64,000 bases of DNA, taken from assembly GCA_016178705.1 (NCBI GenBank), contig JACOST010000028.1, forward strand, positions 4,951 through 68,950, in the 5' to 3' direction. Numbering within the stretch: the stretch's first letter is position 1; the number at the start of each line of letters is the position of its first letter. Both the position numbers and the translations under genes were made by a program. Shown one piece after another: positions 14,641 through 49,147 of this stretch. This DNA comes from Deltaproteobacteria bacterium (lineage in GTDB: Bacteria; Desulfobacterota; Binatia; HRBIN30; JACQVA1). Under the pieces are notes generated by a model. It made no database searches and was not told the DNA's origin. It saw only the letters and a program-made list of their open reading frames with translations.

Positions 14641-15108
14641 ATGAGCCAACATCCTCGACACTTTGACCGAATGACGGCGGCTGATCGTATCTTCAATCGT
14701 CTCTTCGGGGCACTTGTCGGACTCGGAGTCGGCCTGTCGCATAACTACTTACTGGAAGTACGTGGCCGGAAAACCGGGACCCTCTATTCAACCCCGATCG
14801 ATCTCTTGCGTCGAGAGAACCGACTCTTCTTGGTTGCGCCACGCGGATTCACGCAATGGGTCCGCAACGCGCTGGCGGCGGGCCGCGTGACGCTCAAGAA
14901 AGGTAGACAGCGGAACGAGTATCGTTTGCAGAATGTTGACGACGCGCAGAAACCGGAACTGCTCAAGGCGTATCTCGATCGCTTCAAACTGACCGTCCAG
15001 CGTTTCTTCCTCGTCCCAGCGGGCTCGCCGGTGGCGGGCTTCGTCCCCCTCATCGATCGCTACCCGGTATTCGAACTGGTGCGATCCGACGACACGCCGG
15101 GCCGATGA
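14641..15108 (+). CDS. Deazaflavin (F420)-dependent nitroreductase-like protein (DUF385 / PNPOx-like split barrel)
   Basis: 155 aa. NRLFLVAP...RNEYRLQNVDDAQKPELLKAY, typical of the DUF385 family. Confidence 0.6.
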   Translation: MSQHPRHFDRMTAADRIFNRLFGALVGLGVGLSHNYLLEVRGRKTGTLYSTPIDLLRRENRLFLVAPRGFTQWVRNALAAGRVTLKKGRQRNEYRLQNVDDAQKPELLKAYLDRFKLTVQRFFLVPAGSPVAGFVPLIDRYPVFELVRSDDTPGR

Positions 15109-22400: not shown

Positions 22401-22926
22401 GCAGCCCACCGACGGCGCCGAACTGAGCGAAGCGCGCGTGTTCGGACGATAGCGCGGGTGGTGTCGGCGCCGGAAGATCCGGTTGCCACTCGATCAACTC
22501 GGGCACCAATTGCGCGATCAGCCCGGCCGTATCGCCGAGCAATTCGGTGCGCGCGGCGGGACCACGATCCCGCAGCACAGCGCGAATGATCTGCACCCAC
22601 GGCCAGTATGCGGGCGCTCCGCCACCTTCCCAACAGCGGCCCCAGAGAACCTGCGCGCCGCGCCGGGCGGCTTCGGCGGTCAGTTCCTCCGCGAGTCGCG
22701 TCTTGCCGATGCCGGGCTCGCCGGCGATGAGGAACACCCGCCCGCGCCCTGCCGCGGCATCGGCCAGTCCGGAGTAGAGTTCAGTGAGTTCGCGCTCGCG
22801 GCCAACAAACGATCGCGCCGTGAGCCGATGGAGCGCCTGGTTTGATTCGTTTTCCACCGGTTGTCCCGCGGCGTGCACTACTCTCGCCGCGGTCGCCTGT
22901 GTAGGTGCGGCGGCCGGGTTGGTCAA
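19414..22926 (-). CDS. Large AAA(AAA_16-like)-TPR regulator with an uncharacterised conserved C-terminal domain (paralog 1)
   Basis: Walker A LIAGEPGIGKTRLAEEL. Walker B LVLILDDLH. Long TPR/helical region. C-terminal ~200 aa (FEGQYWSVGSGATLLRLKDSKGLRCLSQLLQHPGREFHATDL...TTIKTGTYCSY) matches no domain I recognise, but is conserved in the downstream paralog. Confidence 0.8.
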   Translation of the reverse strand: MTNPAAAPTQATAARVVHAAGQPVENESNQALHRLTARSFVGRERELTELYSGLADAAAGRGRVFLIAGEPGIGKTRLAEELTAEAARRGAQVLWGRCWEGGGAPAYWPWVQIIRAVLRDRGPAARTELLGDTAGLIAQLVPELIEWQPDLPAPTPPALSSEHARFAQFGAVGGLLKRAGAARPLVLILDDLHASDQPSLLLLQFIARELRDAHLLIAGTYRDIEMPSRPECAQTLAAIAREGHRVPLGGLSADDVARFITAGFALAPSRAVVAAVHQTTEGNPLFIDEVVRTLVVQHAARLSEIPPDGLPIPHGVGDAIRQRLRPLSPACRRVLNIAAVLGREFDFAPLLAMCERPAAQLLDLLGEASTNAIVTTLPGASSRYSFQHTLIRETLYSDLSPSERARMHQQVAEILERLDAADLAPHYAEIAHHFLHATPLGDPHQAISYAVRAGERAAALFAYEEAAIQFERALEALALTDTQTDAAGCEVLLGLGEAQLGSGRDQDARATFAHAATIARRLAAPALLARAALGFADRGVGAPQSIADPTVAALIEEALAGLGSDPTAVRARLLARLAAELAVSDRERGITLVGHALAMARELADPVTLAHVLSAQHFVLWRSDYLADRLTIADEITQLGDRLGDRELAIQGRMWRLIDLMNGGDGDRLDAELATYPPLAAALGRSRYRWMGANLRAMRALWRGQWTEAIALAQEATPLAERAEIRLNPLVQAFVAQRELRQLEGQLPMLHVFVERYPFSPVPRTFLALVHRELDQEAEARYEFEQVAHHEFADLQRERRLGVLPYLSEVCAYLRDNRRAAILYDLLLPYVDSTIAYAASVSFGAATHYLGILAATMARWDDAARHFEDALARNARMDGPPWLARTQYAYTCALLTRGRVGDHLRARDLAAHALATAEALGMVSLAMQLRTLDVRTEGDHAVAELEEPIPVAAASGGLRLVRSARTISPQSKRRQPEPHAGSDHQQSPAKDNQLDSVRGLFHFEGQYWSVGSGATLLRLKDSKGLRCLSQLLQHPGREFHATDLAAPATASATAIEGRARTTDKQRIEDLRDQLDEATRFNDLGRASKLREEIEMFADQLAAGAGLGNRGSARAADAERARVNVTRAIKTTIKRISDGDAHLGRYLATTIKTGTYCSYRPDPRLPIRWQF

Positions 22927-24434: not shown

Positions 24435-27400
24435 CTACAAGCGCCAGCTCTTCGGCCAACGTGGATCGGGTGTGTAGGAACAGAACGTGCCGGTCTTGAT
24501 GGTGGTGCTGAGATGCCGGCCCAACGCTGAATCGCCGTCGGCAATTCGTTTCAGCACCGCTTTGATGGCGCGGGTGACGTTGACGCGAGCGCGTTCGGTT
24601 GCCGATGGCCCGCTGCGTGTACGACCGTGCAGACCAACCGCCCGCGCGAGTTCGCGCGTCAGAAACTCGATCTCGTTTTGTGTGCTGGTAATCCGCCCGA
24701 GGTCGTTGAAGCGGGTGGCTTCTTCCAACTCTGCGCGAAGACTTTGCAACTGGCGCTTGTATGCCGCCCGTGCTTGCGGGTCCAGCAGTGCCCCAAGGTC
24801 GCCGAGATTGCCGGCGCGCAACCCGAGTTGTTGCCGTTGCTCGTCGCTGAGTTGGTCGATCTGCGCCGCGGCGGGAGTCACACTGTCGGGCTTGTGAGCG
24901 ATCAAGTCGAGCGCATGAAATTCCCGGCTTGGGTGGCGCAAGAGATGTGCGATGTAGCGCAGACCCTTGGTGTCCTTGAGGCGGAGTGGGGCCATCCCTT
25001 CGCCGACGGTCCAGAACTCCCCTTCCAGACGAAAGCTGCACTCGGCAGTCGTAGCGCCGGTGGTCGCCGGGGAATGCTGCGGTGGAGCCGCGGTGATGGC
25101 TCGCCCGCGGTGTTTCGCCGGGAAACTCAGCACGCGGCCGCGAGTGGAAGCGCCCGACGGCTCCGCATCGTGCAGCGCGGAGGCATCGCCGCTGGCGAGC
25201 GCGCGGGTGATCGGTTCGCGCTGCTGCGCCGATGACGGCTCCAGACGCGCTACGTCGGCCAATGCTTGCGCGCGCTCGGCGAGCGGCGTCATCCCCAACT
25301 CGCGCGCGGTGTCGTGGGCGTGCTGCAACAGATCGCGCGCGTGTTCGCGGGAATTCGCGGCACGGAGCGCGGGCCCCGCATCCACTAGCATGCGAGCGTA
25401 GGCGTACTCGGTGGCGGCCACCGCCGGCCGGCCTCCGGCGGCTAGACTGCGCGCGCGCGCATCTTCGAAGTGTTTCGCGGCCTCATCCCATCTCTCCAAG
25501 GTTGTGGCCAGGAGACCGAGGGCGTGGAAGCCCGGGCCGAAGCAGTGCCGCGGACCGAACGAGATGAAGCGCGAACCAAACCGGAACAGTCGCTCATACA
25601 GCAGGGCCGCCGCGTGGCGATCGCCGAAGTGCGCGCACAGCTCCGCCAACCACGGCAGCATCGGTAGGAGCGCGTTGGTGCGCACGAGATCGACGAAGTC
25701 GTCGGCCGCCAGGCGACCGTACTCGGCCCGGGCCTCGGCGTCGTGTCCCTGGTCGATCTGTATCAACGCCAGCGCGCAGCGGATGATCGGCACGTGCGGC
25801 ATCTGTTCGACCCCGCGCCGCGCGATCATTTCCGCGACCTCGTACTGGCCGAGCGCCCGCTTCGCCACGTAGGCCTGAAAGCCGACGCTGCCCAGCGCAG
25901 TGTCGTCGCGCACCCGCTCGGCGAGTGCGCCAATCTCTTGGCCAAGCGCGTCGCTTTCGGCGAAGCGCCCGAGCCACAGGGCACGCATCGCTCGCAGCAT
26001 GATGGTGTTGCTGAGGTAGCGGGGTTGGCGCAGCTCGTCGGCGAGTCGACTGCACGCGTCGAGTTCGCGTTCCCACTCGCCGCCACCCACTCCCATCTCA
26101 ATGACGTCGAGCAACCGCCAGGTGTGCGCTTGCAGTGCAAGCTCACGATCGTCGGCACTCTCGGCGAGCTGAATGCCCTCGTTGGCGAGGCTGAGCCGCT
26201 CGTCGACGTCGGGCGAATCCCACAGCGCGAAATGGCGCGCATTGACGGCGTAGGCCAAAGCCGCCGACTGGCCGCAGCGGCGCGCCATCTCGACCGCTTG
26301 CCGGCTCAGTGCGGCGCGCCGCTCCTCGGCGTCCGAGAAGTACAGTTCGGCCGCCAGCCGCGCCAGTATCCGTGCGCGCAGAGGATGGTCGTGCTCGGCC
26401 AACCGCACCAGCGCTTCTTCGAGCGCGGCCACCAGAACCGGGTCGACGACTCCACCGCGCGGCAGTCCGTGACCGATGCCGCCGAGCGCGAGCACCGCCC
26501 GCGCGAACGAGTCGGACGCATTCGCGTACCGTGCGCGCTCTGCCGCACGCAGAAACGTCTCCCGCGCCTCGCTGGTGTGCCAGGCGCGCGCCTGCGCGTT
26601 GCCCAACGCCAGCAGCAGCTCGAACTCCCGCTGGGGGTCTGGGGCCCCGAGGACGAGGGCGTCGAGAGTGCGTGTGTAGTGCGCTGCCGCGTCTTCGTAC
26701 GCCAACAAGTCCGCCGCGCGGCGCCCGGCGCGCTCACCGTAGGTGATGGCCTTGGTCAGGTCGCCGGCGGGCGCGGCCTGGAGAAAATGATGGGCGAGCT
26801 CGGCGACATGGGCGTCGGGGTCGGTGGCCGACAGCGTCTCCAACACCTCGCCGATGCGTTGGTGCAAACTCAAACGTTGTGCCGCCGGCAGATCGTCGTA
26901 CACGGTCTGCCGAATCAGCATGTGCGTAAAACTGTACCGAGTGGTGATCCCCGGTAGCTTGGTGACGATGCCCGCGGTGATCGCTTCGCTGAGGATGTCG
27001 AGGACGTCGGGTGCGGGCAGCTCGGACACCCGTTGCAGCGTCAGCAGATCGAAGTCGCGACCGATCACCGCGGCTATGCTCACCACGCGCTGACAGGTCG
27101 CCGACAGCGGTCGCAGCCGCTCGTGCGTGACTTCACGAATCCCGGCTGGAATCCTCAGGCGCTCCGCGGTCGCATCAGCGAGTGTCAGGTCGCGTCCTTC
27201 TGCCAGCAGCCAGCGCACGACTTCATCGACGAAAAATGGATTGCCGTCAGTGGTGCGGTGCAGGGTCGTGATGACCGCGGGCGGTGGCGCGATCACAAAC
27301 GTGCGTTGAATAAAATGAGCGACGTCGGGTTCGGGCCAGCCGCTGAGTGGTAGGCGGTGGCCGTTGCGGGCCACGTCGCTCAGCAGGCGCGCGCACTCAG

Positions 27401-28166
27401 GTTGACGTCGCACCTCGACCTCACGGTAGGTGCCGATCAGCAGCACTCGCGCGCTGCGCAGTTCCCGTGCGGCGAACTGCAGCAACAACAGCGACGGGTC
27501 ATCGGCCGCGTGCAGATCGTCGAGCAGGATCACGAGCGGCTGGTCCACTGCCACCCGCTGCAGGAACGTGGTCGTCGCATCGAACAACGGAAAGCGGGCC
27601 TGTTCGGACTCGATCGTCGACGCCTGCGATCCGGCCGGAATGCCGGCCACGCGCTGTCGCAGGTCGGGCACCAGGGACGCGATGCACGACGCCCCGCCGC
27701 CGAGATGGTGCGCAAGTGCGTGTGGATCACGGTCGCGGATCAACGCGCGCAGGATCTGGATCCACGGCCAAAAGGCCGGCGCGCCGCCGCCTTCCCAACA
27801 CCGGCCCCACAGCACCTGCGCGCCACCGGCGCTCGCCGTTGCGGCGAGTTCTTCCGCCAGCCGCGTCTTGCCGATGCCCGGCTCGCCGACGATGAGGAAG
27901 ACGCGGCCGCGCCCGTTCAGCGCGTCGTCGAGTCCGGTGCGTAGCTCTGTCAGCTCGCGGTCGCGGCCGACGAAGGCGCGCGTGCCCGGGCGATCGGGGT
28001 CGGCGCTGGTGGTTGTCTGCCGAGGGTCACTCACGTGGGGTTGGTTAGTACGTGATCGGACGCATACGTCAAGAGACGAATGCCCGAGTCGCCGACAATC
28101 GCGGACGCGCTGTCCGTGGTTTCGCTTTCGGCGGGCTCGCGCTAGGGATGCGAGCCACAGTGCCAC
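24435..28166 (-). CDS. Large AAA(AAA_16-like)-TPR regulator with the same uncharacterised C-terminal domain (paralog 2). The true start may be the in-frame GTG at ~28034
   Basis: LIVGEPGIGKTRLAEEL, LVILLDDLH and TPR region are collinear with paralog 1. The C-terminal FRLEGEFWTVGEGMAPLRLKDTKGLRYIAHLLRHPSREFHALDL...TTIKTGTFCSY matches paralog 1. Confidence 0.8.
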   Translation of the reverse strand: MALWLASLARARRKRNHGQRVRDCRRLGHSSLDVCVRSRTNQPHVSDPRQTTTSADPDRPGTRAFVGRDRELTELRTGLDDALNGRGRVFLIVGEPGIGKTRLAEELAATASAGGAQVLWGRCWEGGGAPAFWPWIQILRALIRDRDPHALAHHLGGGASCIASLVPDLRQRVAGIPAGSQASTIESEQARFPLFDATTTFLQRVAVDQPLVILLDDLHAADDPSLLLLQFAARELRSARVLLIGTYREVEVRRQPECARLLSDVARNGHRLPLSGWPEPDVAHFIQRTFVIAPPPAVITTLHRTTDGNPFFVDEVVRWLLAEGRDLTLADATAERLRIPAGIREVTHERLRPLSATCQRVVSIAAVIGRDFDLLTLQRVSELPAPDVLDILSEAITAGIVTKLPGITTRYSFTHMLIRQTVYDDLPAAQRLSLHQRIGEVLETLSATDPDAHVAELAHHFLQAAPAGDLTKAITYGERAGRRAADLLAYEDAAAHYTRTLDALVLGAPDPQREFELLLALGNAQARAWHTSEARETFLRAAERARYANASDSFARAVLALGGIGHGLPRGGVVDPVLVAALEEALVRLAEHDHPLRARILARLAAELYFSDAEERRAALSRQAVEMARRCGQSAALAYAVNARHFALWDSPDVDERLSLANEGIQLAESADDRELALQAHTWRLLDVIEMGVGGGEWERELDACSRLADELRQPRYLSNTIMLRAMRALWLGRFAESDALGQEIGALAERVRDDTALGSVGFQAYVAKRALGQYEVAEMIARRGVEQMPHVPIIRCALALIQIDQGHDAEARAEYGRLAADDFVDLVRTNALLPMLPWLAELCAHFGDRHAAALLYERLFRFGSRFISFGPRHCFGPGFHALGLLATTLERWDEAAKHFEDARARSLAAGGRPAVAATEYAYARMLVDAGPALRAANSREHARDLLQHAHDTARELGMTPLAERAQALADVARLEPSSAQQREPITRALASGDASALHDAEPSGASTRGRVLSFPAKHRGRAITAAPPQHSPATTGATTAECSFRLEGEFWTVGEGMAPLRLKDTKGLRYIAHLLRHPSREFHALDLIAHKPDSVTPAAAQIDQLSDEQRQQLGLRAGNLGDLGALLDPQARAAYKRQLQSLRAELEEATRFNDLGRITSTQNEIEFLTRELARAVGLHGRTRSGPSATERARVNVTRAIKAVLKRIADGDSALGRHLSTTIKTGTFCSYTPDPRWPKSWRL

Positions 28167-34128: not shown

Positions 34129-34205
34129 CAAGGGAAAGAAAATCGCACTCACAGGTCAACCAAAGGCACGGCTCGTTCGTCAGTGTAGGCAACGGAGGTA
34201 GCGAC

Positions 34206-34715
34206 ATGACGAAACGCAAGATGCTAATGATTGGCCTGGTAGCTGTTGGTATCTACGCAGCGGCCGCCGACGCGCAGCCGATCCCACCGGGGCCACCGAT
34301 GGAACACCATCATGAGGGACCCCATTGTGGGCACATGAAGGGTGGAGGTCCGGGACGGCTCATCCACTTGCTGCTGCGGTCCACTGATCTGACGGCGGAC
34401 CAAGAGACTCAAGCGCATCAGATTCTCGACGCGGGTCGCGTTGCTGTGCAGGACCTTTTCACCCAGTTGCATCAAGCCGATAACGATCTGGCGAATCTGC
34501 TACTCGGTGCGCAAGATGTGCTACCCGCTGCGTTGACGGCACAACAAGCGCTCATCACCCAGTTACAACAGCAGTTGGCACAACACGAAGCCGCCACCGT
34601 CTTGGCGATCCGCGCCATTTTGACGCCGGAACAGTTGGCCCAAGCGAGCGCCGCGTTGAGTGACATGGAGGCCCGGCACGCCGACGAATCGCGCCGCTTC
34701 GGAAATGGCGGTTGA
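34206..34715 (+). CDS. Periplasmic LTXXQ-motif protein (CpxP/Spy/ZraP family) with a His-rich segment
   Basis: Signal peptide. MEHHHEGPHCGHMKGGGPG. LTADQ / LTAQQ / LTPEQ motifs. RBS GGAGGT. Confidence 0.75.
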   Translation: MTKRKMLMIGLVAVGIYAAAADAQPIPPGPPMEHHHEGPHCGHMKGGGPGRLIHLLLRSTDLTADQETQAHQILDAGRVAVQDLFTQLHQADNDLANLLLGAQDVLPAALTAQQALITQLQQQLAQHEAATVLAIRAILTPEQLAQASAALSDMEARHADESRRFGNGG

Positions 34716-35335
34716 CCTGCACGCGTGTCGCAAGCGACGACGAGCGGCATTCAATTCCGTGTGCGGAGGACGGAACGGACGAGAGCGTGAAAGCGGCGGC
34801 AGCGAAAGATCAGTCAGACTACGACGCGCTCTTCCGGACGCACCATGCGCGCGTCGTGCGCTTGTGCCGACTCTTGCTCTCCGATCCAGACGAGGCTGAT
34901 GACGTGACGCAGGAGGTTTTTCTCAAATTGTTCCAAGCCTGCGAAAAATTGTCTCAAGCCTACGAACTGGGCGATCGTGAGATTGCCTGGGGAGCGTGGC
35001 TCACCCGGGTTGCCGTCAACGGGTGCCGGGATCGGCGACGCTCGGGCTGGTGGAAGTGGTGGCGCGAACGGCACGAGGAGTTTGCGGAAGCCAACCTACC
35101 GTCGGCGACACTCAACCCCGAGCAGCAGACGCTGAGTAACGAAGCCCGGCGCGGAATCTGGCGATGCTTCCGACAGTTGTCGGCGCGGCAGCAAGAAGTG
35201 TTCGCCTTGCGCCAATTGGAAGGCTGGTCGACCGAAGAGGTAGCGCAAACGCTCGGGCTGAGCCCAGGCAGCGTCAAGCGTCATCTCTATCGAGCGGTCC
35301 ATCACATGCGCACCGGGCTGGGAGGTTACCGATGA
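34712..35335 (+). CDS. ECF (sigma-70 family) RNA polymerase sigma factor (start uncertain)
   Basis: Region 2 DVTQEVFLKLF. Region 4 LSARQQEVFALRQLEGWSTEEVAQTLGLSPGSVKRHLYRA. Confidence 0.8.
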   Translation: MTCTRVASDDERHSIPCAEDGTDESVKAAAAKDQSDYDALFRTHHARVVRLCRLLLSDPDEADDVTQEVFLKLFQACEKLSQAYELGDREIAWGAWLTRVAVNGCRDRRRSGWWKWWRERHEEFAEANLPSATLNPEQQTLSNEARRGIWRCFRQLSARQQEVFALRQLEGWSTEEVAQTLGLSPGSVKRHLYRAVHHMRTGLGGYR

Positions 35336-35832
35336 ATCGATGCCTCGACGAGCGCGCGCTGCTGCGGATGTACACGCACGACGGTAGCGCCGCCGAACAA
35401 TCCCATTTGCGACTGTGTACGGAGTGTACTGAACACTACGACCAACTGGTTGGCGATCTTGAAACGATCGGCCACGCGCTCGCAACACCGCCACCGGCCG
35501 CCGTCAGCCGTCGCGCGTTGCCCGCTCGGATGTCTTGGGTGCCTGCCGGAATCGCGGGTGCGGCGCTCGCGGTCGTGATGCTAAATTTCGCCTGGGTTCG
35601 GCATTCATCGCCAGTACAGGTGGCGACTCGCCTTCACAACGTCTCGGCGTTCGCCGGGGACTTGTCCGATGCGCTGTTTGCGACGTCCGACGCGAGCGCC
35701 TTTGTGCCGCTAGCTGAGGAGGCTCCATATCTCGAGGCCGCGCTCAACGCCGGCCAACCCTGCACGCAGGATCAATTTTTCCGTGGCGCGTGCACTGATC
35801 AATTCTCCGCTCTCATGATTGAAGACGAGTAA
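35332..35832 (+). CDS. Anti-sigma factor with a zinc-finger (ZAS-like HxxxCxxC) N-terminus and one TM helix
   Basis: HLRLCTECTEH motif. TM VPAGIAGAALAVVMLNFAW. Its ATG overlaps the sigma factor stop. Confidence 0.7.
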   Translation: MNRCLDERALLRMYTHDGSAAEQSHLRLCTECTEHYDQLVGDLETIGHALATPPPAAVSRRALPARMSWVPAGIAGAALAVVMLNFAWVRHSSPVQVATRLHNVSAFAGDLSDALFATSDASAFVPLAEEAPYLEAALNAGQPCTQDQFFRGACTDQFSALMIEDE

Positions 35833-35860
35833 GGACGAACAAGATGGAGGAGATTGTCAC

Positions 35861-36358
35861 ATGTTGAAGTCCAAACTGCTGTTCACCGGGTTGGTGTTGG
35901 CCAGCCTGACCTCGGCTCCGCTGCACGCGCAACCGATGGGCGGACCTCCGATGGGCGGACCGCCGATGGGCCGCATGATGCACGGAGACGATCCGGCGAT
36001 GATGCTCCACATGGTCCTCAAACAGGCCAATCTCACAGCCGACCAGCAGGATCAGGTGCGGAAAATCATGGACGCCGATCATCAGAATTTGCGCGCGCTG
36101 TTTTCGAAATTGGAGGCGGCCAACCGTCAGTTGGCCGATAAGCTGTTTGGCCCGGGAACGGTCCAGCCGGCCGACTTGACGCCGCAGGTGCAGCAGATCA
36201 CCCAGCTCCGACAACAGTTGATGGAGCAAGGCGTGAAGACCGCCTTAGCCGTGCGGGCCGTGCTCAGCCCGCAACAACTGGCCAAGGTTGCGCAGACCAA
36301 AGATCAACTCGAGAAGCTGCAAACGCAGATGCGCAATATTATCGAGGGCAGCGACTAA
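35861..36358 (+). CDS. Periplasmic LTXXQ-motif protein (CpxP/Spy family) with a Met-rich segment
   Basis: Signal peptide. MGGPPMGGPPMGRMMHGDDPAMMLHM. LTADQQDQ / LTPQVQQ / LSPQQL. Confidence 0.75.
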   Translation: MLKSKLLFTGLVLASLTSAPLHAQPMGGPPMGGPPMGRMMHGDDPAMMLHMVLKQANLTADQQDQVRKIMDADHQNLRALFSKLEAANRQLADKLFGPGTVQPADLTPQVQQITQLRQQLMEQGVKTALAVRAVLSPQQLAKVAQTKDQLEKLQTQMRNIIEGSD

Positions 36359-36403
36359 GTCGACCAGAGGCGCTCGAATGGCAAAGTACAGCGGAGGTGC
36401 ACG

Positions 36404-36556
36404 ATGAAGCGAATTGCGATGCTGATAGTTCTGAGCTTAGGGCTGGCGATCCTCGGCAGGTTTTCCCCGACTGCCGCCAATTGTGGGCAAGCGATCGCTG
36501 CCGACGACGACGGCGGAGATGACGGCGACGGGGATGACGACGACTCCGGTGCCTAG
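36404..36556 (+). CDS. Unannotated 50-aa secreted peptide with a poly-acidic tail (below the ORF-track length cutoff)
   Basis: RBS GGAGGTGCACG then ATG. MKRIAMLIVLSLGLAILGRFSPTAANCGQAIAADDDGGDDGDGDDDDSGA*. Confidence 0.5.
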   Translation: MKRIAMLIVLSLGLAILGRFSPTAANCGQAIAADDDGGDDGDGDDDDSGA

Positions 36557-44665: not shown

Positions 44666-47600
44666 TCAGTCCGCATCCCACGCGACCGCGTGGATTCGCT
44701 GCGGTTCGGTGATGCCCTTGAGCGCTACCTCGCGAGGCGCGCCGAAGCGCGCTGCCGTGTCGCCGGTGGCCGCCTGCAACGCCGCCGACACCAGGATCTC
44801 ACCGCCTTGCGCCGTGCCGGCGATGCGCGCGGCGAGCACGACGTTCTTGCCGAAGAAGTCGTCGGCCTCGCGAATCACTTCGCCGGCGTGCAAACCGATG
44901 CGGACGCGCAACGGCTCGTCCGCATGCCGTTGATTGTAGGCGGTGAACCCTCGTTGCATGGCGATGGCGCAGTGCAGGGCGCGCCGCGCACTCTGGAAGA
45001 CGATCATGAAACCATCGCCTTGCGATTTCACTTCGACGCCGTTGTGGGCTGCGACGTGCTCGCGCACGATCGCGTTATGGGCGCGCAACACGTCGAGCCA
45101 TTTTCGGTCGCCGAGACGCTCGTTGATCACGGTCGAACCCTCGATGTCGCTGAACATGAGCGTGACCGAGCCGTCGCTCGCCGCAACCGAACGCAGATCG
45201 GGGCGGTGGCGTTGCACGTCCGCGGCGACGACCTCGATCGAGGTGGTCATCGTGCCCGACTCCACGCCTTGCGCGCGCAGCTTGAGTGCCAGCGCCATGT
45301 CGAGCCAGCCCTTGAGCCCGAGTTCCTGCGACGTGGCGAGCGCCGCGCCGAGAAGGACGCGCGCCTGCTCACGATCGCCCGGCCCGTCGCGGTCGAGCCG
45401 CATGCGAGCGTAGTCGATCTGCGTGCGCGCTTCCCACGCGCGCGCGCCGAGCCGGCGATCCATCGCCAGCGCGTCTTCGAAGTGCCGCGCCGCGCCCTCG
45501 TAGTAGCGCATGACGCCCGCTAGGTTACCGAGGGCGCGCGTGGCTGCGCCGTAGGTGGTGGCGTGGGCAAAGTGTAGATACAGTTGTTCGTACGGCAACA
45601 GAGTCCGGTACAGCTCTTTCGCACACTCGGAGTCTCGCAGCAGCGTGCAGGTGTCGGCGAGGAGCGCAAGATTCATCAAGTAGTTGCTGTCACGTAAAGT
45701 TGCGAAGCCGGCCTGCGCGATGCGATCGAACTCCGCCCGCGCTTCCGCGTCGCGAGCGAGCTCGGCTAGGTAGCAGGCGAGATGGATGGAGTAGCCCTCG
45801 ACATTCGGGTACAGATCCCGGCCGCGGCGGGTGCCGCGTTCGACCTCGGTCAACCGACCTTGGAAGCGCCGCAGCGCGCCGACCTGCGTAACGAAGACCT
45901 GAAATGCTGCTTCGGGCGCATGCTCTCGTCGCCCCAATGCGGCCTGAATGCACCGTTCCGCTTCATCGAGATGGCCTCGCCACAGAGCGCGGTCAGCCAA
46001 CGTCTGATCCACAATGCGGACGAAGTCCCGTTGTCTGAGCTCGACCGCCAGACGCTGCAAATGAACAAGCTCACGATCCACGCCTTCGCCGTCTCCGCTC
46101 CGAATGCACTCGCGGAGGATGTTGGTCCGCGTGCGGAACTCCTGCTCGCGGTCACCGGTCTCGACAGCCAAACGCAGCGACTCGGTCAACAAGCCCCGCC
46201 GCTCGTCGCTCCGTACCGACAAGCCGAGGAAGAACACGCTGGCTTGCAAATGAATGGCAACCCGGAGCGACTCAGGGTCGTCAATCGAGCGCGCCAGGTC
46301 GATCGCATGCCAGAGTCGAGCATCCCGGTCGTCATTCGTTTCGACCCAACCGCGGACCACCGTGAGCGCGTACAGTATCCGCACGCGCAGCAGGGTGGGG
46401 GCATCTCCGAGTCGCTCCATCGCCTCGTTGAGAGCCTGGCTGCGCTCATCGATCGCGGACATGCTGAAAGGCGTCCCCACATTAATGGCCAGCCCGAGCG
46501 CGGCCCGCGCGAAGAGTTCCGCGTCATCCAGTTCGCGTGCGAGTGCGAGTGCACGCCGATCAGCCTCGTCCGCCTTCGGCACCGAGCCGGAGCAGATTTC
46601 CGCCGTCGCGAGCGCGAGCAGGATCTCGCACCGGCGCCGGCCGTCGACGGTCGTGCCGACCTCAAGAGTCTGCAACGCCCGCTCGTAGTGGTTGGCGGCT
46701 TCCTCGAAGGCGAGCAGGGCGCTCGCGCGCTCGGCGGCGCGCACCGCGTAGTCGACGGCCTTGCCGACGTCGCCGCCGGGCGCGGCCTCGCAGAAGTGAT
46801 GCGCCAGCTCGGCGAGATGCGGCTCGGGCTTGGTGCCGTAGAGCGCTTCGAGCACCTCGGCGGCGCGGCGATGTGAGCGAATGCGCTGGGCAGTGCGCAG
46901 CTCGCCGTAGAGCGTCTCGCGGATCAACGCGTGCGAGAAGCGGTAACGGCCGGCAACCGGCGGCAGCGGGGCGATGATGCGTGCGGCTTCGGCTTCATCG
47001 AGCGCTTCGGCAACTGCGTCGACGGACAATTCACTGACGCCGGGGAGCACGCGCAGCTCGAACTCACGACCGAGTACCGCCGCGATCGTCAGCACCTGGT
47101 TGCAGCGTTCGGAGAGCGTGCTGAGTCGCCGGCCAATCACTTGCCGGACGCCTTGCGGAATCTCGACGCTCCACGATGCCACGGTGTCGGCTCGATCGAG
47201 ACGCCCGTCCGACTGTAAGAGGCGCACGACCTCGGTGATGAAGAAGGGATTGCCTTCGGTCTCGCGGTACACCGCCTCTACGAGTGCAGGTGGTGGTGTA
47301 CGGCCGGCGGTCAACTCGATGAAGCGCGCCACGTCGTCGCCGCTCAAACCGCGCAACAGCACACGTTCGCCGCGCTGATTGCGTACCAATTCGGCGAGCG
47401 TCTGTTCCAGCGGATGCTGGCGGCCGAGCTCGACGTCGCGATAGGTCCCCATCAGCAGCAGACGGGCGTCGCCGATTTCCCGCGCCAGGAATTCGAGCAA
47501 CAGTAACGACGGCTTGTCCGCCCAATGGAGATCGTCGAGCACGACGACCAGCGGTTTGGCGCGCGATGCGTTCCTGAGAAACGTGGTGACGCTTTCGAAC

Positions 47601-49147
47601 AGGCGGAACCGCGCTTGTTCCGGTTCGAGCCGGGGAGCGACCGGCAAGCCCGGTAATCGGTCCCGCACCTCGGAGACCACTTCGGCGATGTCGGCCGCGC
47701 CCGGACCCATCTCCGCGGCGAGCAGTTTCGGTTCGCGCGTGTGCACATAGGCGCGGATCGCGTTGACCCACGGCCAATACGCCGGCGCGCCCTCGCCTTC
47801 GTGGCAACGCCCCCACAGCACTTGCGCGCCACGCATCTGCGCGTAGGTGGCGAGTTCTTCCGCGGTGCGGGTCTTGCCGATACCAGGTTCGCCGACGAGG
47901 AGAAGAATCCGGCCGCGGCCGGAGAGTGCGTCATCGAAGGCGGCGCGCAGTTGCTGGGTTTCCTTGTCGCGCCCCACGAAAATGCCGCTGGCGAGGCGAT
48001 CCAGTGGATTCACCGCCGGGCTTGACGCTGGTATCACTCCGGCGACGGCGCTCGGAGCGTTGGCGATTTGCGCGAGTCGCTCGCCAACGATCGCCGCGCT
48101 GGCGGGGCGCTGCGCTGGACTCTTCGCGAGCAATTGCAAGGTGAGCGCTTCCAGCTCGCGCGTGATGGCTGGATTGTGCCACGAGGGCGCGACCGGCGGT
48201 GTGTTGATGTGTTGGCTGATCACCGCGACCACATCGTCACCGAGAAAGGGTGGCCGGCCGGTCAGCAATTCGTACAGCAGTGCGCCGAGCGCGTAGAGGT
48301 CGACGCTGGCAGTCACCTCGCCGGACAGGGCCTGTTCAGGTGCCATGTAGGCGGCAGTGCCGACCATCGTCCCCATCTGCGTCAGGCGCGTCTGATCAAT
48401 GTCGAGCGCGAGACCGAAGTCCCCGAGCTTGGCGCTGCCGTCAGCGGCGAGCCACACGTTGCCGGGCTTGAGGTCGCGATGGATGACGCCTCGTGCGTGC
48501 GCGTGATCGAGCGCGAGGCAGATTTGCTGGGCGATGCGCAGGGCGTCGGTGATGGATAGGGGTGCACGGCTATGCGCCGCTACAGACTCTTCGCTGCCTA
48601 CTGCTCTCTGCCTACCGCCTACTGATTCACGCAGCAGATCATCCACGCTGCCGCCAGCCATGTACTGACTGACGATGTAGGCTTGTCCGTCCTCCTCGCC
48701 GATGTCGAAAACGGTGACGATGTGGGGATGATCGCCAAGCCGCGCCATCGCTTGCGCCTCGCGCTGAACGCGCGCGCGGCCCGCGTCGTCGAGCCCTTCG
48801 GTTTTGATCAACCCGAGCGCGACGTCGCGATCGAGCCGATGGTCGCGGGCGAGGTAGACGCGCTTGCGCGCGCCTTCGCCGAGGAGGCGCTGCACCCGAT
48901 AACGTCCGGAGGCGAAGGCAGCAGGCAGGTTGTTCGTGGTTAGGTTGTTGGTTGTTTGTGGAGGAGGGGCACTACCGATTGCGGTCGGCGTACCGGCTCC
49001 CAGTGAGGCACCACATTCGCCGCAGAACTTCTCTCCCGACTCGTTGAATGCTTGGCACTGTGGGCAGCGCAGCGCGAGCAGCGCGCCGCAGTCCGAGCAG
49101 AACATCCGACCTTCACGATTGTCGCGACCGCACGTTGCGCAACGCAT
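44666..49147 (-). CDS. Multidomain signalling protein: N-terminal double zinc-ribbon, Ser/Thr protein kinase, AAA(AAA_16-like) ATPase, TPR region and C-terminal class III adenylyl/guanylyl cyclase
   Basis: CxxC x4 at the N-terminus. HRDLKPGNV and DFGLA kinase motifs. LLVGEPGIGKTRTAEEL. C-terminal VTLMFSDIEGST...GDGFMIVF...RIGLHAGEV cyclase motifs. The ATPase-TPR core is ~collinear with the two regulators at 19-28 kb. Confidence 0.85.
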   Translation of the reverse strand: MRCATCGRDNREGRMFCSDCGALLALRCPQCQAFNESGEKFCGECGASLGAGTPTAIGSAPPPQTTNNLTTNNLPAAFASGRYRVQRLLGEGARKRVYLARDHRLDRDVALGLIKTEGLDDAGRARVQREAQAMARLGDHPHIVTVFDIGEEDGQAYIVSQYMAGGSVDDLLRESVGGRQRAVGSEESVAAHSRAPLSITDALRIAQQICLALDHAHARGVIHRDLKPGNVWLAADGSAKLGDFGLALDIDQTRLTQMGTMVGTAAYMAPEQALSGEVTASVDLYALGALLYELLTGRPPFLGDDVVAVISQHINTPPVAPSWHNPAITRELEALTLQLLAKSPAQRPASAAIVGERLAQIANAPSAVAGVIPASSPAVNPLDRLASGIFVGRDKETQQLRAAFDDALSGRGRILLLVGEPGIGKTRTAEELATYAQMRGAQVLWGRCHEGEGAPAYWPWVNAIRAYVHTREPKLLAAEMGPGAADIAEVVSEVRDRLPGLPVAPRLEPEQARFRLFESVTTFLRNASRAKPLVVVLDDLHWADKPSLLLLEFLAREIGDARLLLMGTYRDVELGRQHPLEQTLAELVRNQRGERVLLRGLSGDDVARFIELTAGRTPPPALVEAVYRETEGNPFFITEVVRLLQSDGRLDRADTVASWSVEIPQGVRQVIGRRLSTLSERCNQVLTIAAVLGREFELRVLPGVSELSVDAVAEALDEAEAARIIAPLPPVAGRYRFSHALIRETLYGELRTAQRIRSHRRAAEVLEALYGTKPEPHLAELAHHFCEAAPGGDVGKAVDYAVRAAERASALLAFEEAANHYERALQTLEVGTTVDGRRRCEILLALATAEICSGSVPKADEADRRALALARELDDAELFARAALGLAINVGTPFSMSAIDERSQALNEAMERLGDAPTLLRVRILYALTVVRGWVETNDDRDARLWHAIDLARSIDDPESLRVAIHLQASVFFLGLSVRSDERRGLLTESLRLAVETGDREQEFRTRTNILRECIRSGDGEGVDRELVHLQRLAVELRQRDFVRIVDQTLADRALWRGHLDEAERCIQAALGRREHAPEAAFQVFVTQVGALRRFQGRLTEVERGTRRGRDLYPNVEGYSIHLACYLAELARDAEARAEFDRIAQAGFATLRDSNYLMNLALLADTCTLLRDSECAKELYRTLLPYEQLYLHFAHATTYGAATRALGNLAGVMRYYEGAARHFEDALAMDRRLGARAWEARTQIDYARMRLDRDGPGDREQARVLLGAALATSQELGLKGWLDMALALKLRAQGVESGTMTTSIEVVAADVQRHRPDLRSVAASDGSVTLMFSDIEGSTVINERLGDRKWLDVLRAHNAIVREHVAAHNGVEVKSQGDGFMIVFQSARRALHCAIAMQRGFTAYNQRHADEPLRVRIGLHAGEVIREADDFFGKNVVLAARIAGTAQGGEILVSAALQAATGDTAARFGAPREVALKGITEPQRIHAVAWDAD
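48594..48624. repeat. TAGGCAG-like heptamer array embedded in-frame inside the kinase domain of 44666..49147
   Basis: ctgcctactgctctctgcctaccgcctactg encodes VGGRQRAVGSEE on the minus strand. Confidence 0.7.

What the first reader, a model, noticed from the sequence alone, without database searches (positions are those of the whole stretch)
34206..36556. ECF sigma / zinc-type anti-sigma pair bracketed by two LTXXQ periplasmic proteins with His-rich and Met-rich metal motifs, plus an acidic mini-peptide
The gene order is: LTXXQ protein with MEHHHEGPHCGH (ZraP-like, Zn/Ni-type ligands); ECF sigma; anti-sigma with an HLRLCTECTEH zinc-finger motif; a second LTXXQ protein with MGGPPMGGPPMGRMMHG (Met-rich, Cu(I)-type ligands); then a 50-aa secreted peptide ending DDDGGDDGDGDDDDSGA. 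This looks like a self-contained envelope metal-stress module in which both chaperone-like proteins and the sigma/anti-sigma pair are co-transcribed. Pairing a His-type and a Met-type CpxP-family protein around an ECF pair is not a standard described arrangement.
Basis: partly seen in the sequence, partly recalled or inferred. Interest (0 to 1): 0.6.

Follow-up and report, generated by a model that had tools for sequence, protein, structure and literature searches.

The report
ECF sigma operon with CpxP-like proteins
This is a real five-gene, self-activating stress-response operon from an uncultured Binatia bacterium; its three-gene core (sigma factor, zinc-motif anti-sigma factor, Spy/CpxP-like periplasmic protein) is already catalogued though untested, and only the extra His-rich paralog and a tiny acidic membrane peptide are new local additions.

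Summary
All five ORFs and all quoted motifs are present at 34206-36556 on the + strand.

- **Core cassette.** Sigma, then anti-sigma with Hx3Cx2C, then a PF13801/CpxP-like protein occurs in 67 of 68 complete related loci (Binatia, Rokubacteria/Methylomirabilota). It matches the published description of ECF group ECF281: zinc-finger anti-sigma at +1, 'heavy-metal resistance protein' at +2.
- **Promoter.** A conserved ECF-type promoter (TGTCAACC-N16-TCGTY) lies upstream of sigma in relatives. In this window it lies upstream of the first CpxP-like gene (34155-34182). The whole operon is therefore probably autoregulated.
- **Upstream paralog.** It occurs in only 7 of 80 loci. Its His/Cys tract is found only in the window and one close relative.
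- **Met-rich tail.** The downstream copy's tail is retained in close Binatia relatives but fades or disappears in distant orthologs.
- **CnrX site.** The aligned CnrX Ni/Co ligands (His119, Met123) are replaced.
- **Regulon in relatives.** The same promoter motif drives MdtB-type RND and MacB-type exporters and Cys-rich secreted proteins. This suggests a Bae/Cpx-like envelope-stress response rather than a strictly metal-specific switch.
- **Acidic mini-peptide.** It is conserved in four relatives, and each stand-alone copy has the motif upstream.

Verdict: a new variant of a known kind, of moderate-to-low interest.

The parts
34155..34182 (+). ECF-type promoter: -35 GTCAACC (34155-34161), 16-nt spacing, -10 TCGTCA (34177-34182). 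It lies in the 77-bp gap after the upstream cyclase gene, 22 nt before the LTXXQ-A ATG.
   Evidence: The exact dyad match is at 34155-34180. The same dyad occurs in 48 of 80 sigma-upstream regions, against 11 on the reverse-strand control. It sits at -70 to -100 from sigma in three-gene loci and upstream of the extra paralog in loci that have one. The site scores 29.1 bits on the PWM. It is the only site above 15 bits in the 64-kb window, and five shuffles gave no site at 14 bits or more.
34206..34715 (+). LTXXQ-A: secreted CpxP/Spy-family paralog (169 aa). Signal peptide, then a disordered His/Cys/Met tail (MEHHHEGPHCGHM), then a helical core with two LTXXQ motifs.
   Evidence: PF13801 matches at 5e-8, above its cut-off. 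It is 37% identical to LTXXQ-B. An upstream copy is present in 7 of 80 loci, and the six that could be placed in the tree form a separate, faster-evolving paralog clade. The His/Cys tract occurs only in the window and L001.
34787..35335 (+). ECF (group 4) sigma factor, 182 aa from the GTG start. The start codon is uncertain; a TTG at 34712 is possible.
   Evidence: Sigma70_r2, Sigma70_r4_2 and TIGR02937 match. P0001 is 100% identical, from a MAG labelled 'Deltaproteobacteria bacterium'. Hundreds of orthologs at 60-70% identity come from Candidatus Binatia.
35332..35832 (+). Single-pass membrane anti-sigma factor (166 aa). Cytoplasmic three-helix N-domain with Cys4 and His25-x3-Cys29-x2-Cys32, a TM helix at about residues 65-91, and a short periplasmic tail with a Cys144/Cys154 pair.
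   Evidence: Its start overlaps the sigma stop as ATGA. H25, C29 and C32 are invariant in 50 and in 62 homologs. Position 4 is Cys, or a nearby His (positions 3-4) in six loci. AF2 gives pLDDT of 89-98 for residues 1-50 and a helix at 65-91. The only fold hits are the ZAS anti-sigmas RsiW and ChrR, and they are weak. Pfam zf-HC2 is not significant.
35861..36358 (+). LTXXQ-B: secreted CpxP/Spy-family protein (165 aa). This is the conserved third gene of the cassette. Signal peptide, then a disordered Met/His/Gly/Pro tail (MGGPPMGGPPMGRMMHG), then a helical hairpin core.
   Evidence: PF13801 matches at 2.8e-14. It is present downstream of the anti-sigma in 67 of 68 complete loci. In the AF2 model residues 1-43 are disordered and helices span 45-162. 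Foldseek hits are CnrXs (TMt 0.70-0.75), ZraP (0.87), Spy and CpxP. The best PDB sequence hit is Spy, at 3.6e-4.
36404..36556 (+). Mini-protein (50 aa): an N-terminal hydrophobic helix (signal or anchor; conserved G-R-F/L-S) followed by an Asp/Gly/Ser-rich acidic tail.
   Evidence: A GGAGG ribosome-binding site precedes the ATG. Homologs with the same architecture occur in L001, L002, L005 and L009. The stand-alone copies in L005 and L009 have the ECF promoter motif about 60 nt upstream, scoring 22.8-23.9 bits. L002 has a 27.1-bit site about 257 nt upstream on the same strand. Between the window and L001 there are 5 synonymous and 3 non-synonymous codon changes. There is no Pfam or NCBIfam hit.

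Best explanation
This is an autoregulated ECF sigma / membrane anti-sigma envelope-stress module of the type catalogued as ECF281. It carries two lineage-specific add-ons.

**Shown**
- One ECF-type promoter (GTCAACC-N16-TCGTCA) precedes a five-gene operon: CpxP-like A, sigma, Hx3Cx2C anti-sigma, CpxP-like B, acidic mini-protein.
- The sigma / anti-sigma / CpxP-like B triad is almost invariably linked in relatives.

**Inferred**
- At rest the anti-sigma's zinc-motif cytoplasmic domain holds the sigma at the membrane.
- A periplasmic insult releases the sigma. Candidate insults are metal excess (Cu/Zn) or toxic compounds that damage envelope proteins. Release probably occurs by regulated proteolysis of the anti-sigma, as for the structurally closest anti-sigma, RsiW.
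- The freed sigma then transcribes its own operon.
- CpxP-like B is a soluble Spy/CpxP/ZraP-type protein. It probably acts both as a periplasmic chaperone or metal buffer and as a feedback modulator or co-sensor acting on the anti-sigma's short periplasmic tail. This would parallel CpxP on CpxA, ZraP on ZraS and CnrX on CnrY.
- The disordered Met/His tails add low-specificity soft-metal binding in this lineage.
- The His/Cys-tailed paralog A and the acidic mini-protein are recent regulon recruits. They broaden cation handling and are not core signalling parts.
For: - Domain assignments.
- Conserved triad in 67 of 68 complete loci.
- Published ECF281 context, a zinc-finger anti-sigma at +1 and a PF13801 protein at +2: PMC7826278.
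- Conserved promoter with 16-nt spacing in 51 of 53 sites. It is placed upstream of sigma in three-gene loci, and upstream of paralog A in the window, L001, L004, L005 and L007.
- Sigma and anti-sigma overlap as ATGA. No internal sigma-70-type promoter and no + strand terminator.
- Invariant H25/C29/C32, plus Cys at position 4 or a nearby His.
- The only fold hits for the anti-sigma are RsiW and ChrR.
- CpxP-superfamily fold of protein B with a disordered N-tail.
- Spy is the best sequence match in the PDB, and Spy's own N-terminus aligns as PMMHHKGKFGPHQDMMF.
- In relatives the motif also drives MdtB/MuxB-type RND and MacB-type exporters, further CpxP paralogs and Cys-rich secreted proteins. 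By established knowledge this resembles the E. coli Bae/Cpx regulons (spy, mdtABC, cpxP).
- The same operon type is noted in Azospirillum brasilense (RpoE8, a hypothetical protein, a periplasmic heavy metal sensor): PMC12826043.
Against: - There is no experimental datum for any member, so the inducing signal is unknown.
- No interaction between CpxP-like B and the anti-sigma was tested.
- The anti-sigma's periplasmic tail is poorly conserved outside Binatia, which weakens the idea of a conserved docking site.
- Pfam zf-HC2 does not recognise the anti-sigma, and the fold hits are statistically weak (E = 2.2).
- Assignment of the sigma to ECF281 rests on gene context only.
- No exporter or other target site was found in this 64-kb window. 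The exporter link is therefore borrowed from distant relatives at 46-55% sigma identity.
Confidence: 0.6

Rival explanations
1. This is the first reader's model: a dedicated two-metal sensor module. The His/Cys-tailed protein A senses Zn/Ni-type ions and the Met-tailed protein B senses Cu(I)/Ag(I). Each relays metal occupancy to the anti-sigma, as CnrX does to CnrY, so the operon is a self-contained metal-stress switch.
For: - The PF13801 family was founded on CnrX, and CnrXs is the top structural match.
- The tails are strongly enriched in M/H/C: 8-9 of 28-37 residues here, and 5-13 of about 25 in Binatia orthologs.
- ECF281, ECF290 and ECF291 are proposed to be heavy-metal related.
- A Sphingobium plasmid carries a PF13801 'sensor' and an ECF sigma inside a cop copper-resistance cluster.
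Against: - CnrX His119 and Met123 align to Thr127 and Val131. His42, His46 and Glu63 have no conserved counterpart (and the A3 consensus).
- A and B are soluble, with cleavable signal peptides. They are not membrane-anchored like CnrX.
- The His/Cys tract is found only in the window and L001.
- Several orthologs of B have little or no M/H in the tail (L008, L033, L038, L047; 1-3 in most Rokubacteria) yet keep the cassette.
- The exporters under the same motif in relatives are MdtB-type (1169 bits) rather than CusA/CzcA-type (278 bits).
- No metal-resistance gene lies in the window.
Confidence: 0.2
2. Output-only model. The CpxP-like proteins are merely Spy-like ATP-independent chaperones produced by the response. 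The anti-sigma alone senses the signal, and A, B and the mini-protein play no part in signalling.
For: - Spy is the closest sequence relative in the PDB.
- By established knowledge, Spy is a pure regulon output of Bae/Cpx.
- The number and type of accessory periplasmic proteins under the motif vary freely between lineages. This is typical of regulon members rather than sensors.
Against: - Linkage of B with the sigma / anti-sigma pair is near-absolute across phyla (67 of 68 loci). That is tighter than expected for an ordinary target gene.
- By established knowledge, three of the four characterised family members (CpxP, ZraP, CnrX) modulate their cognate membrane signalling protein.
- NCBIfam's Spy equivalog scores 31.6 bits against a cut-off of 174, so B is not a Spy ortholog.
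Confidence: 0.3
3. Cytoplasmic thiol/redox switch. The Cys4/His25/Cys29/Cys32 site works like RsrA, releasing the sigma on oxidation or on attack by thiol-reactive metals. The periplasmic proteins are downstream repair factors.
For: - The four candidate ligands are conserved, including a Cys at position 4 as in RsrA-type ZAS proteins.
- ChrR is among the few fold hits.
Against: - The protein is membrane-anchored, with a conserved periplasmic Cys pair.
- By established knowledge, membrane ZAS anti-sigmas such as RsiW use zinc structurally and are inactivated by proteolysis.
- In six orthologs Cys4 is absent and a His lies at position 3-4 instead, which argues for a metal ligand rather than a redox-active thiol.
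- The regulon is periplasmic or envelope-directed.
Confidence: 0.1

Closest known systems
ECF281 (ECF classification 2.0, Casas-Pastor et al. 2021, PMC7826278), split from original group ECF20
   Same: The gene context is identical for the core: the ECF sigma, a zinc-finger-type anti-sigma at +1 and a PF13801 'heavy-metal resistance' protein at +2.
   Different: - Membership of the sigma itself could not be tested, because the ECF Hub HMMs are not available here.
- Pfam zf-HC2 does not detect this anti-sigma.
- The window adds an upstream CpxP paralog and a downstream acidic mini-protein.
- No ECF281 member has been characterised experimentally in the literature I could search.
CnrYXH of Cupriavidus metallidurans (ECF291)
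   Same: An ECF sigma is controlled through a membrane anti-sigma together with a periplasmic CpxP-fold protein. The operon is autoregulated. CnrXs is the top fold match for protein B.
   Different: - Gene order is Y-X-H, with a short class II anti-sigma (CnrY, 95 aa, no zinc motif).
- CnrX is membrane-anchored and has a His42/His46/Glu63/His119/Met123 site. That site is not conserved here.
- cnr is linked to a CzcA-type efflux operon, and none is present here.
Spy and CpxP of E. coli (Bae and Cpx envelope-stress regulons)
   Same: Soluble periplasmic LTXXQ hairpin proteins with disordered Met/His-containing N-termini. Spy gives the best PDB sequence match (3.6e-4). In relatives the regulon pairs a Spy-like protein with an MdtB-type RND pump, as Bae does.
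   Different: - Control is by an ECF sigma / anti-sigma pair rather than a two-component system.
- The proteins are not orthologs: the NCBIfam Spy and CpxP equivalogs score far below their cut-offs.
ZraP-ZraSR (zinc-responsive accessory protein and two-component system)
   Same: A CpxP-family protein with Gly/His/Met-rich termini is both a regulon member and a modulator of its sensor. ZraP (3lay) aligns with TMt 0.87 over 80 residues.
   Different: The signalling machinery is different. Sequence similarity is negligible (PDB E = 0.55; NCBIfam 13 bits against a cut-off of 200).
SigW-RsiW of Bacillus subtilis (membrane ZAS anti-sigma, regulated proteolysis)
   Same: A single-pass anti-sigma with an N-terminal zinc-motif anti-sigma domain. 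RsiW gives the best, though weak, fold match. SigW is the best PDB match for the sigma profile (1.6e-20).
   Different: RsiW has no CpxP-family partner. The extracytoplasmic domains are unrelated. The fold match is not significant (E = 2.2).

Membership tests
ECF (group 4) sigma-70 factors | [quoted passage not shown] | tested here: met
   PF04542 matches at 1.9e-12 and PF08281 at 3.8e-17. TIGR02937 scores 96.3 bits against a cut-off of 42.9.
ECF281 (Casas-Pastor 2021) | An anti-sigma with a zinc-finger motif is encoded at +1. | tested here: met
   Hx3Cx2C is invariant in 50 of 50 and in 62 of 62 homologs, with Cys at position 4 or a nearby His. One caveat: Pfam zf-HC2 itself is not significant, with a best E of 0.16.
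ECF281 (Casas-Pastor 2021) | A PF13801 heavy-metal resistance protein is encoded at +2. | tested here: met
   PF13801 scores 53.8 bits against a cut-off of 29.2. The protein is present at +2 in 67 of 68 complete loci.
ECF281 (Casas-Pastor 2021) | The sigma core sequence scores best with the ECF281 group HMM. | not testable with these tools
   The ECF Hub models and the paper's supplementary tables are not held.
ECF290 | A RskA-like anti-sigma is encoded at +1. | tested here: not met
   None of 50 anti-sigma homologs has any RskA or other Pfam hit. The protein is only 166 aa, with an Hx3Cx2C motif.
ECF291 / CnrYXH | A CnrY-like class II anti-sigma lies upstream (-2), in gene order Y-X-H. | tested here: not met
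   The order here is X'-H-antisigma-X. The match to CnrY is E = 0.13.
ECF291 / CnrYXH | The CnrX metal site (His42, His46, Glu63, His119, Met123). | tested here: not met
   hhalign maps His119 to Thr127 and Met123 to Val131. The N-terminal ligands fall outside the aligned region and have no conserved His or Glu counterpart. Its numbering agrees with the ligand list in PMC6851896 and with the PDB mutant names.
ECF291 / CnrYXH | An adjacent heavy-metal RND efflux operon. | tested here: not met
   The flanking genes encode an MFS transporter, a nitroreductase, a cyclase, a SnoaL-like protein, an enoyl-CoA hydratase and a Rieske oxygenase. No RND gene is among the window's large ORFs.
CpxP/Spy/ZraP/CnrX superfamily (PF13801 / PF07813) | A Pfam match above the gathering score and two LTXXQ motifs. 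| tested here: met
   Protein A scores 33.6 and protein B 53.8 bits against a cut-off of 29.2. The motifs are LTADQ plus LTPEQ in A, and LTADQ plus LSPQQ in B, read directly from the sequences.
CpxP/Spy/ZraP/CnrX superfamily (PF13801 / PF07813) | The bent helical-hairpin fold. | tested here: met
   The AF2 core has pLDDT of 80-93. The top Foldseek hits are CnrXs, ZraP, Spy and CpxP with probabilities of 0.99-1.0, although E-values are only 0.008-0.09.
Spy, CpxP and ZraP orthologs (NCBIfam equivalogs) | A score above the equivalog cut-off. | tested here: not met
   Spy scores 31.6 against 174, CpxP 18.4 against 238 and ZraP 13.1 against 200.
ZAS (zinc-binding) class I anti-sigma factors | An anti-sigma-domain helical fold that binds zinc. 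| tested here: inconclusive
   The AF2 N-domain is confident (pLDDT 89-98) with three helices. The only fold hits are RsiW and ChrR, but at E of 2.2 or worse. Zinc binding cannot be tested computationally.

The most novel reading that the evidence does not exclude
In this Binatia sub-lineage the ECF281-type switch may have become a multi-input device. Under this reading, two diverged CpxP-fold paralogs with chemically different disordered tails (His/Cys versus Met) compete for, or cooperate on, the anti-sigma's periplasmic tail, so that different metal classes tune one sigma factor. The membrane-anchored poly-Asp mini-protein, which carries the same ECF promoter motif upstream wherever it is a stand-alone gene, would be a previously unrecognised small component of the system, acting for example as a cation sink or a tether at the membrane surface.
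Probability: 0.12. Interest if true: 0.6.

Novelty: new variant of a known kind. Interest (0 to 1): 0.33.

Why it matters
ECF sigma, anti-sigma and CpxP-fold triads are widespread. They occur in Binatia, Rokubacteria/Methylomirabilota and Alphaproteobacteria, and are catalogued as ECF281 and ECF290. None has been characterised, so it is unknown whether the CpxP-fold partner is a sensor, a feedback inhibitor or merely a chaperone output.

This analysis adds three things for the family:
- a well-defined promoter motif;
- a predicted regulon (Spy-like proteins, MdtB-type and MacB-type exporters, Cys-rich secreted proteins, an acidic mini-protein);
- a natural 'two-paralog' variant that could be used to test tail-dependent specificity.

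It is useful background for annotating soil MAG phyla and for synthetic-biology use of orthogonal ECF switches. It does not overturn any current view.

Tried and rejected
- **Direct ECF-group classification.** The supplementary tables and HMMs of the ECF classification paper are not held. A search for 'ECF281' returns only that paper.
- **Pfam detection of the anti-sigma.** None of 50 homologs hits zf-HC2 or RskA. A permissive scan of the N-domains gave one zf-HC2 hit at E = 0.16. A PDB profile search found nothing significant.
- **Second exact promoter match, window 14915-14940 (-).** Rejected as chance. It lies antisense inside a + strand ORF, has no downstream gene, and fell below 14 bits on the PWM.
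- **Other sigma targets in the window.** None found. None of the five largest ORFs is a metal or RND pump.
- **Wider homologs of the mini-peptide.** Only one 92% relative was found in the 5.8-billion-protein database. The more distant homologs came only from my own HMM search of the fetched loci.
- **Comparison with plasmid-borne ECF sigmas.** All hits are below 35% identity. The best one is a CnrYXH-like cop-linked module with a different architecture. Another is a FecI/FecR system and is irrelevant.
- **Literature on Binatia sigma factors.** None found.
- **AF2 model coordinates.** They are not exposed, so ligand geometry of the putative zinc site could not be measured.


Full report
**1. 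Observation**

ORF listing and start-codon inspection confirm five consecutive + strand genes.
- LTXXQ-A, 34206-34715: 169 aa, MTKRKMLMIGLVAVGIYAAAADA|QP...MEHHHEGPHCGHM.
- An ECF sigma, 34787-35335. It has a GTG start and is identical to database protein P0001. A TTG at 34712 is an alternative start.
- A 166-aa protein, 35332-35832. Its ATG overlaps the sigma stop as ATGA, and it contains HLRLCTEC.
- LTXXQ-B, 35861-36358: 165 aa, ...LHA|QPMGGPPMGGPPMGRMMHG.
- A 50-aa ORF, 36404-36556, ending DDDGGDDGDGDDDDSGA.

Pfam and NCBIfam place A and B in PF13801 (Metal_resist, the CnrX/CpxP/Spy superfamily), both above the gathering score. They place the sigma in the ECF family. The third and fifth proteins have no family hit.

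**2. Origin and relatives**

The sigma is 100% identical to a protein from a MAG labelled 'Deltaproteobacteria bacterium'. It has hundreds of orthologs at 60-70% identity, mostly from Candidatus Binatia.

A scan of one genome per GTDB species returned 80 related loci, from Binatia, Rokubacteria/Methylomirabilota and a few others. I translated all ORFs of these loci and searched them with profiles built from the five window proteins.

The order sigma, anti-sigma, LTXXQ-B is present in 67 of 68 loci whose downstream sequence is complete. The single exception, L021, has a truncated anti-sigma.

An upstream LTXXQ copy is present in only 7 of 80 loci: L001, L004, L005, L007, L009, L064 (weak) and L075. 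The six that could be placed in the neighbour-joining tree, together with the window's copy, form a separate and faster-evolving paralog clade. A and B in the window are 37% identical.

**3. The core arrangement is already described**

Casas-Pastor et al. 2021 (PMC7826278) split the old group ECF20 into four groups.
- ECF290: a RskA-like anti-sigma and the same +2 protein.
- ECF289.
- ECF291: CnrH.

The window's core matches the ECF281 context. I could not run the ECF Hub HMMs, so membership of the sigma itself is untested.

No experimentally studied ECF281 member turned up. An operon of the same shape in Azospirillum brasilense (RpoE8, a hypothetical protein, a 'periplasmic heavy metal sensor') is mentioned only as being upregulated (PMC12826043).

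**4. The anti-sigma**

In alignments of 50 and of 62 homologs, His25, Cys29 and Cys32 are invariant. Position 4 is Cys, or a nearby His (positions 3-4) in L008, L030, L065, L051, L067 and L076. This is the pattern expected for a fourth zinc ligand.

AF2 gives a confident three-helix N-domain (pLDDT 89-98), a TM helix at 65-91, and a less confident periplasmic tail of about 75 residues. That tail carries a nearly invariant Cys144/Cys154 pair.

Foldseek returns only seven hits. The top four are the ZAS anti-sigmas RsiW and ChrR, but with E of 2.2 or worse. Pfam zf-HC2 fails to detect the family.

I therefore call it a divergent ZAS-type single-pass anti-sigma. The motif and gene-context evidence is strong. 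The fold evidence is weak.

**5. The CpxP-like proteins**

*Fold and closest relatives.* The AF2 model of B has residues 1-43 disordered (the signal peptide plus the Met-rich tail) and a helical hairpin core. Foldseek ranks CnrXs first (TMt 0.70-0.75), then ZraP (0.87 over 80 residues), Spy and CpxP. By sequence profile the closest solved protein is Spy (3.6e-4). Spy's own N-terminus (PMMHHKGKFGPHQDMMF) aligns with the Met/His tail.

*CnrX site.* The CnrX Ni/Co site is not conserved: His119 aligns to Thr127 and Met123 to Val131. There is no conserved counterpart for His42, His46 or Glu63. Both A and B have cleavable signal peptides rather than CnrX's membrane anchor.

*Tail composition across orthologs.*

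| Group | Met/His/Cys in the tail |
|---|---|
| Close Binatia copies of B | 5-13 of about 25 residues |
| Most Rokubacteria copies | 1-3 |
| L008, L033 | 0 |
| L038, L047 | 1 |

The His/Cys tract of A is found only in the window and in L001, where it reads MEHHQVGPHCGH. The other upstream paralogs carry MMMMGDGP (L004, L005, L009) or no tract (L007, L075).

The tails are thus lineage-specific decorations on a conserved helical core. They are plausible low-specificity metal binders, but they do not define the system.

**6. Promoter and regulon**

An unbiased dyad count on the 300 nt around each sigma start found CAAC-N16-TCGT in 48 of 80 sequences, against 11 on the reverse-strand control.

The refined motif is TGTCAACC(A/G)A...TTCGT(T/C)A, with 16-nt spacing in 51 of 53 sites. 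By general knowledge it fits the usual ECF pattern of AAC at -35 and CGT at -10.

The motif's position depends on locus type.
- In three-gene loci it lies 70-100 nt upstream of the sigma.
- In the window, L001, L004, L005 and L007 it lies upstream of paralog A.
- L075 has only a weaker, regex-level match upstream of its copy.

In the window the site is at 34155-34182, 22 nt before the ATG of A, and scores 29.1 bits. It is the only strong site in 64 kb. The one other hit at 14 bits or more scores 14.7, and shuffles gave none.

No sigma-70-type promoter and no + strand terminator lie inside the operon. The five genes are therefore most likely one autoregulated transcript.

Scanning the related loci shows the motif also in front of:
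- the mini-peptide genes of L005 and L009 (about 60 nt upstream) and of L002 (about 257 nt upstream);
- secreted PF00839 Cys-rich-repeat proteins in six cases;
- MdtB/MuxB-type RND pumps in L045 and L056 (1169 bits for MdtB against 278 for CusA/CzcA);
- MacB-type permeases in seven Methylomirabilota/Rokubacteria loci;
- a further CpxP-like paralog in L063.

This regulon resembles the E. coli Bae/Cpx envelope-stress regulons (spy, mdtABC, cpxP; established knowledge) more than it resembles a czc- or cnr-type metal determinant.

**7. The mini-peptide**

Homologs in L001, L002, L005 and L009 share three features: a K/R-R-I/V start, a hydrophobic helix ending in G-R-F/L-S, and an Asp/Gly/Ser-rich tail. 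The tail is lost in L005.

Nucleotide identity is only 63-68% between the distant copies, yet the reading frame and architecture are kept. Between the window and L001 there are 5 synonymous and 3 non-synonymous codon changes.

Together with the promoter motif upstream of the stand-alone copies, this makes a real gene and a real member of the regulon likely (about 0.7). It is essentially unannotated in public data. Its function is unknown. A membrane-tethered cation-binding tail is a reasonable guess.

**8. Context in the window**

The flanking genes are metabolic: an MFS transporter, a nitroreductase, a cyclase, a SnoaL-like protein, an enoyl-CoA hydratase and a Rieske oxygenase. None of the window's large ORFs is an efflux pump. 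The module is thus 'self-contained' here, but this also means there is no local evidence for a metal role.

**9. Mechanism**

*Shown:* gene content, conservation of the triad, the promoter, the zinc-type motif, the CpxP fold, and the disordered Met/His tails.

*Inferred:*
- The anti-sigma sequesters the sigma.
- Periplasmic stress inactivates the anti-sigma, probably by regulated proteolysis as for RsiW.
- The sigma then amplifies its own operon.
- B acts as chaperone or buffer and, by analogy with CpxP/CpxA, ZraP/ZraS and CnrX/CnrY, as a feedback modulator or co-sensor on the anti-sigma's periplasmic tail.
- A and the mini-protein are recent regulon recruits.

*Rivals:*
- an output-only chaperone model (0.3);
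- a cytoplasmic thiol switch (0.1).

**10. Verdict**

The feature is real. The core is a member of a catalogued but uncharacterised ECF module type. The flanking paralog with a His/Cys tail and the acidic mini-protein make it a local variant. Interest is moderate to low. The most useful outputs are the promoter motif, the predicted regulon and the mini-protein family.

Noticed in passing
window 44666-49147 (-): A 1492-aa multidomain protein: double zinc ribbon, Ser/Thr protein kinase, AAA_16 (STAND-like ATPase) and a C-terminal adenylate/guanylate cyclase domain.
   Followed up: no
window 19414-22926 (-) and 24435-28166 (-): Two further giant (about 1170 and 1240 aa) AAA_16 STAND-type ATPases lie close together.
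   Followed up: no
L002 4135-4590 (+); L004 8275-8817 (-); L005 3281-3766 (+); also L009 and L011: Secreted proteins of about 150-180 aa with Cys-rich repeats (PF00839), some with His-rich ends (e.g. HHGYHHHH in L002). In Binatia relatives they sit directly behind the same ECF promoter motif, so they are probable regulon members of unknown function.
   Followed up: partly
L045 1803-4844 (-); L056 1700-4807 (-); L049 3526-4767 (-); also L053, L057, L061, L062, L066, L072: In Rokubacteria/Methylomirabilota relatives a second copy of the motif points divergently from the sigma operon. It faces an MdtB/MuxB-type RND pump or a MacB-type ABC permease.
   Followed up: partly
L081 (Sphingobium yanoikuyae plasmid pSES220, record 84588-85866): A CnrYXH-ordered trio (small hypothetical protein, 'periplasmic heavy metal sensor', ECF sigma) is embedded in a copper-resistance cluster with copCD, a multicopper oxidase and copB. 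The sigma is 34% identical to the window's.
   Followed up: no
L012 3979-4317 (+) and L029 4331-4717 (-): Secreted Pro/Tyr-rich proteins with a YYWYYC...YYP...CPGGW motif lie behind the same promoter motif. They have no family hit.
   Followed up: no
L002, L005, L009: about 365 nt upstream of the sigma: A strong motif copy (25-27 bits) lies far upstream of the sigma coding region with no convincing ORF behind it. This implies a long leader or a small unrecognised gene.
   Followed up: no
window 14915-14940 (-): An exact GTCAAC-N16-TCGT match lies antisense inside a + strand ORF (14641-15108). I judged it a chance match.
   Followed up: yes
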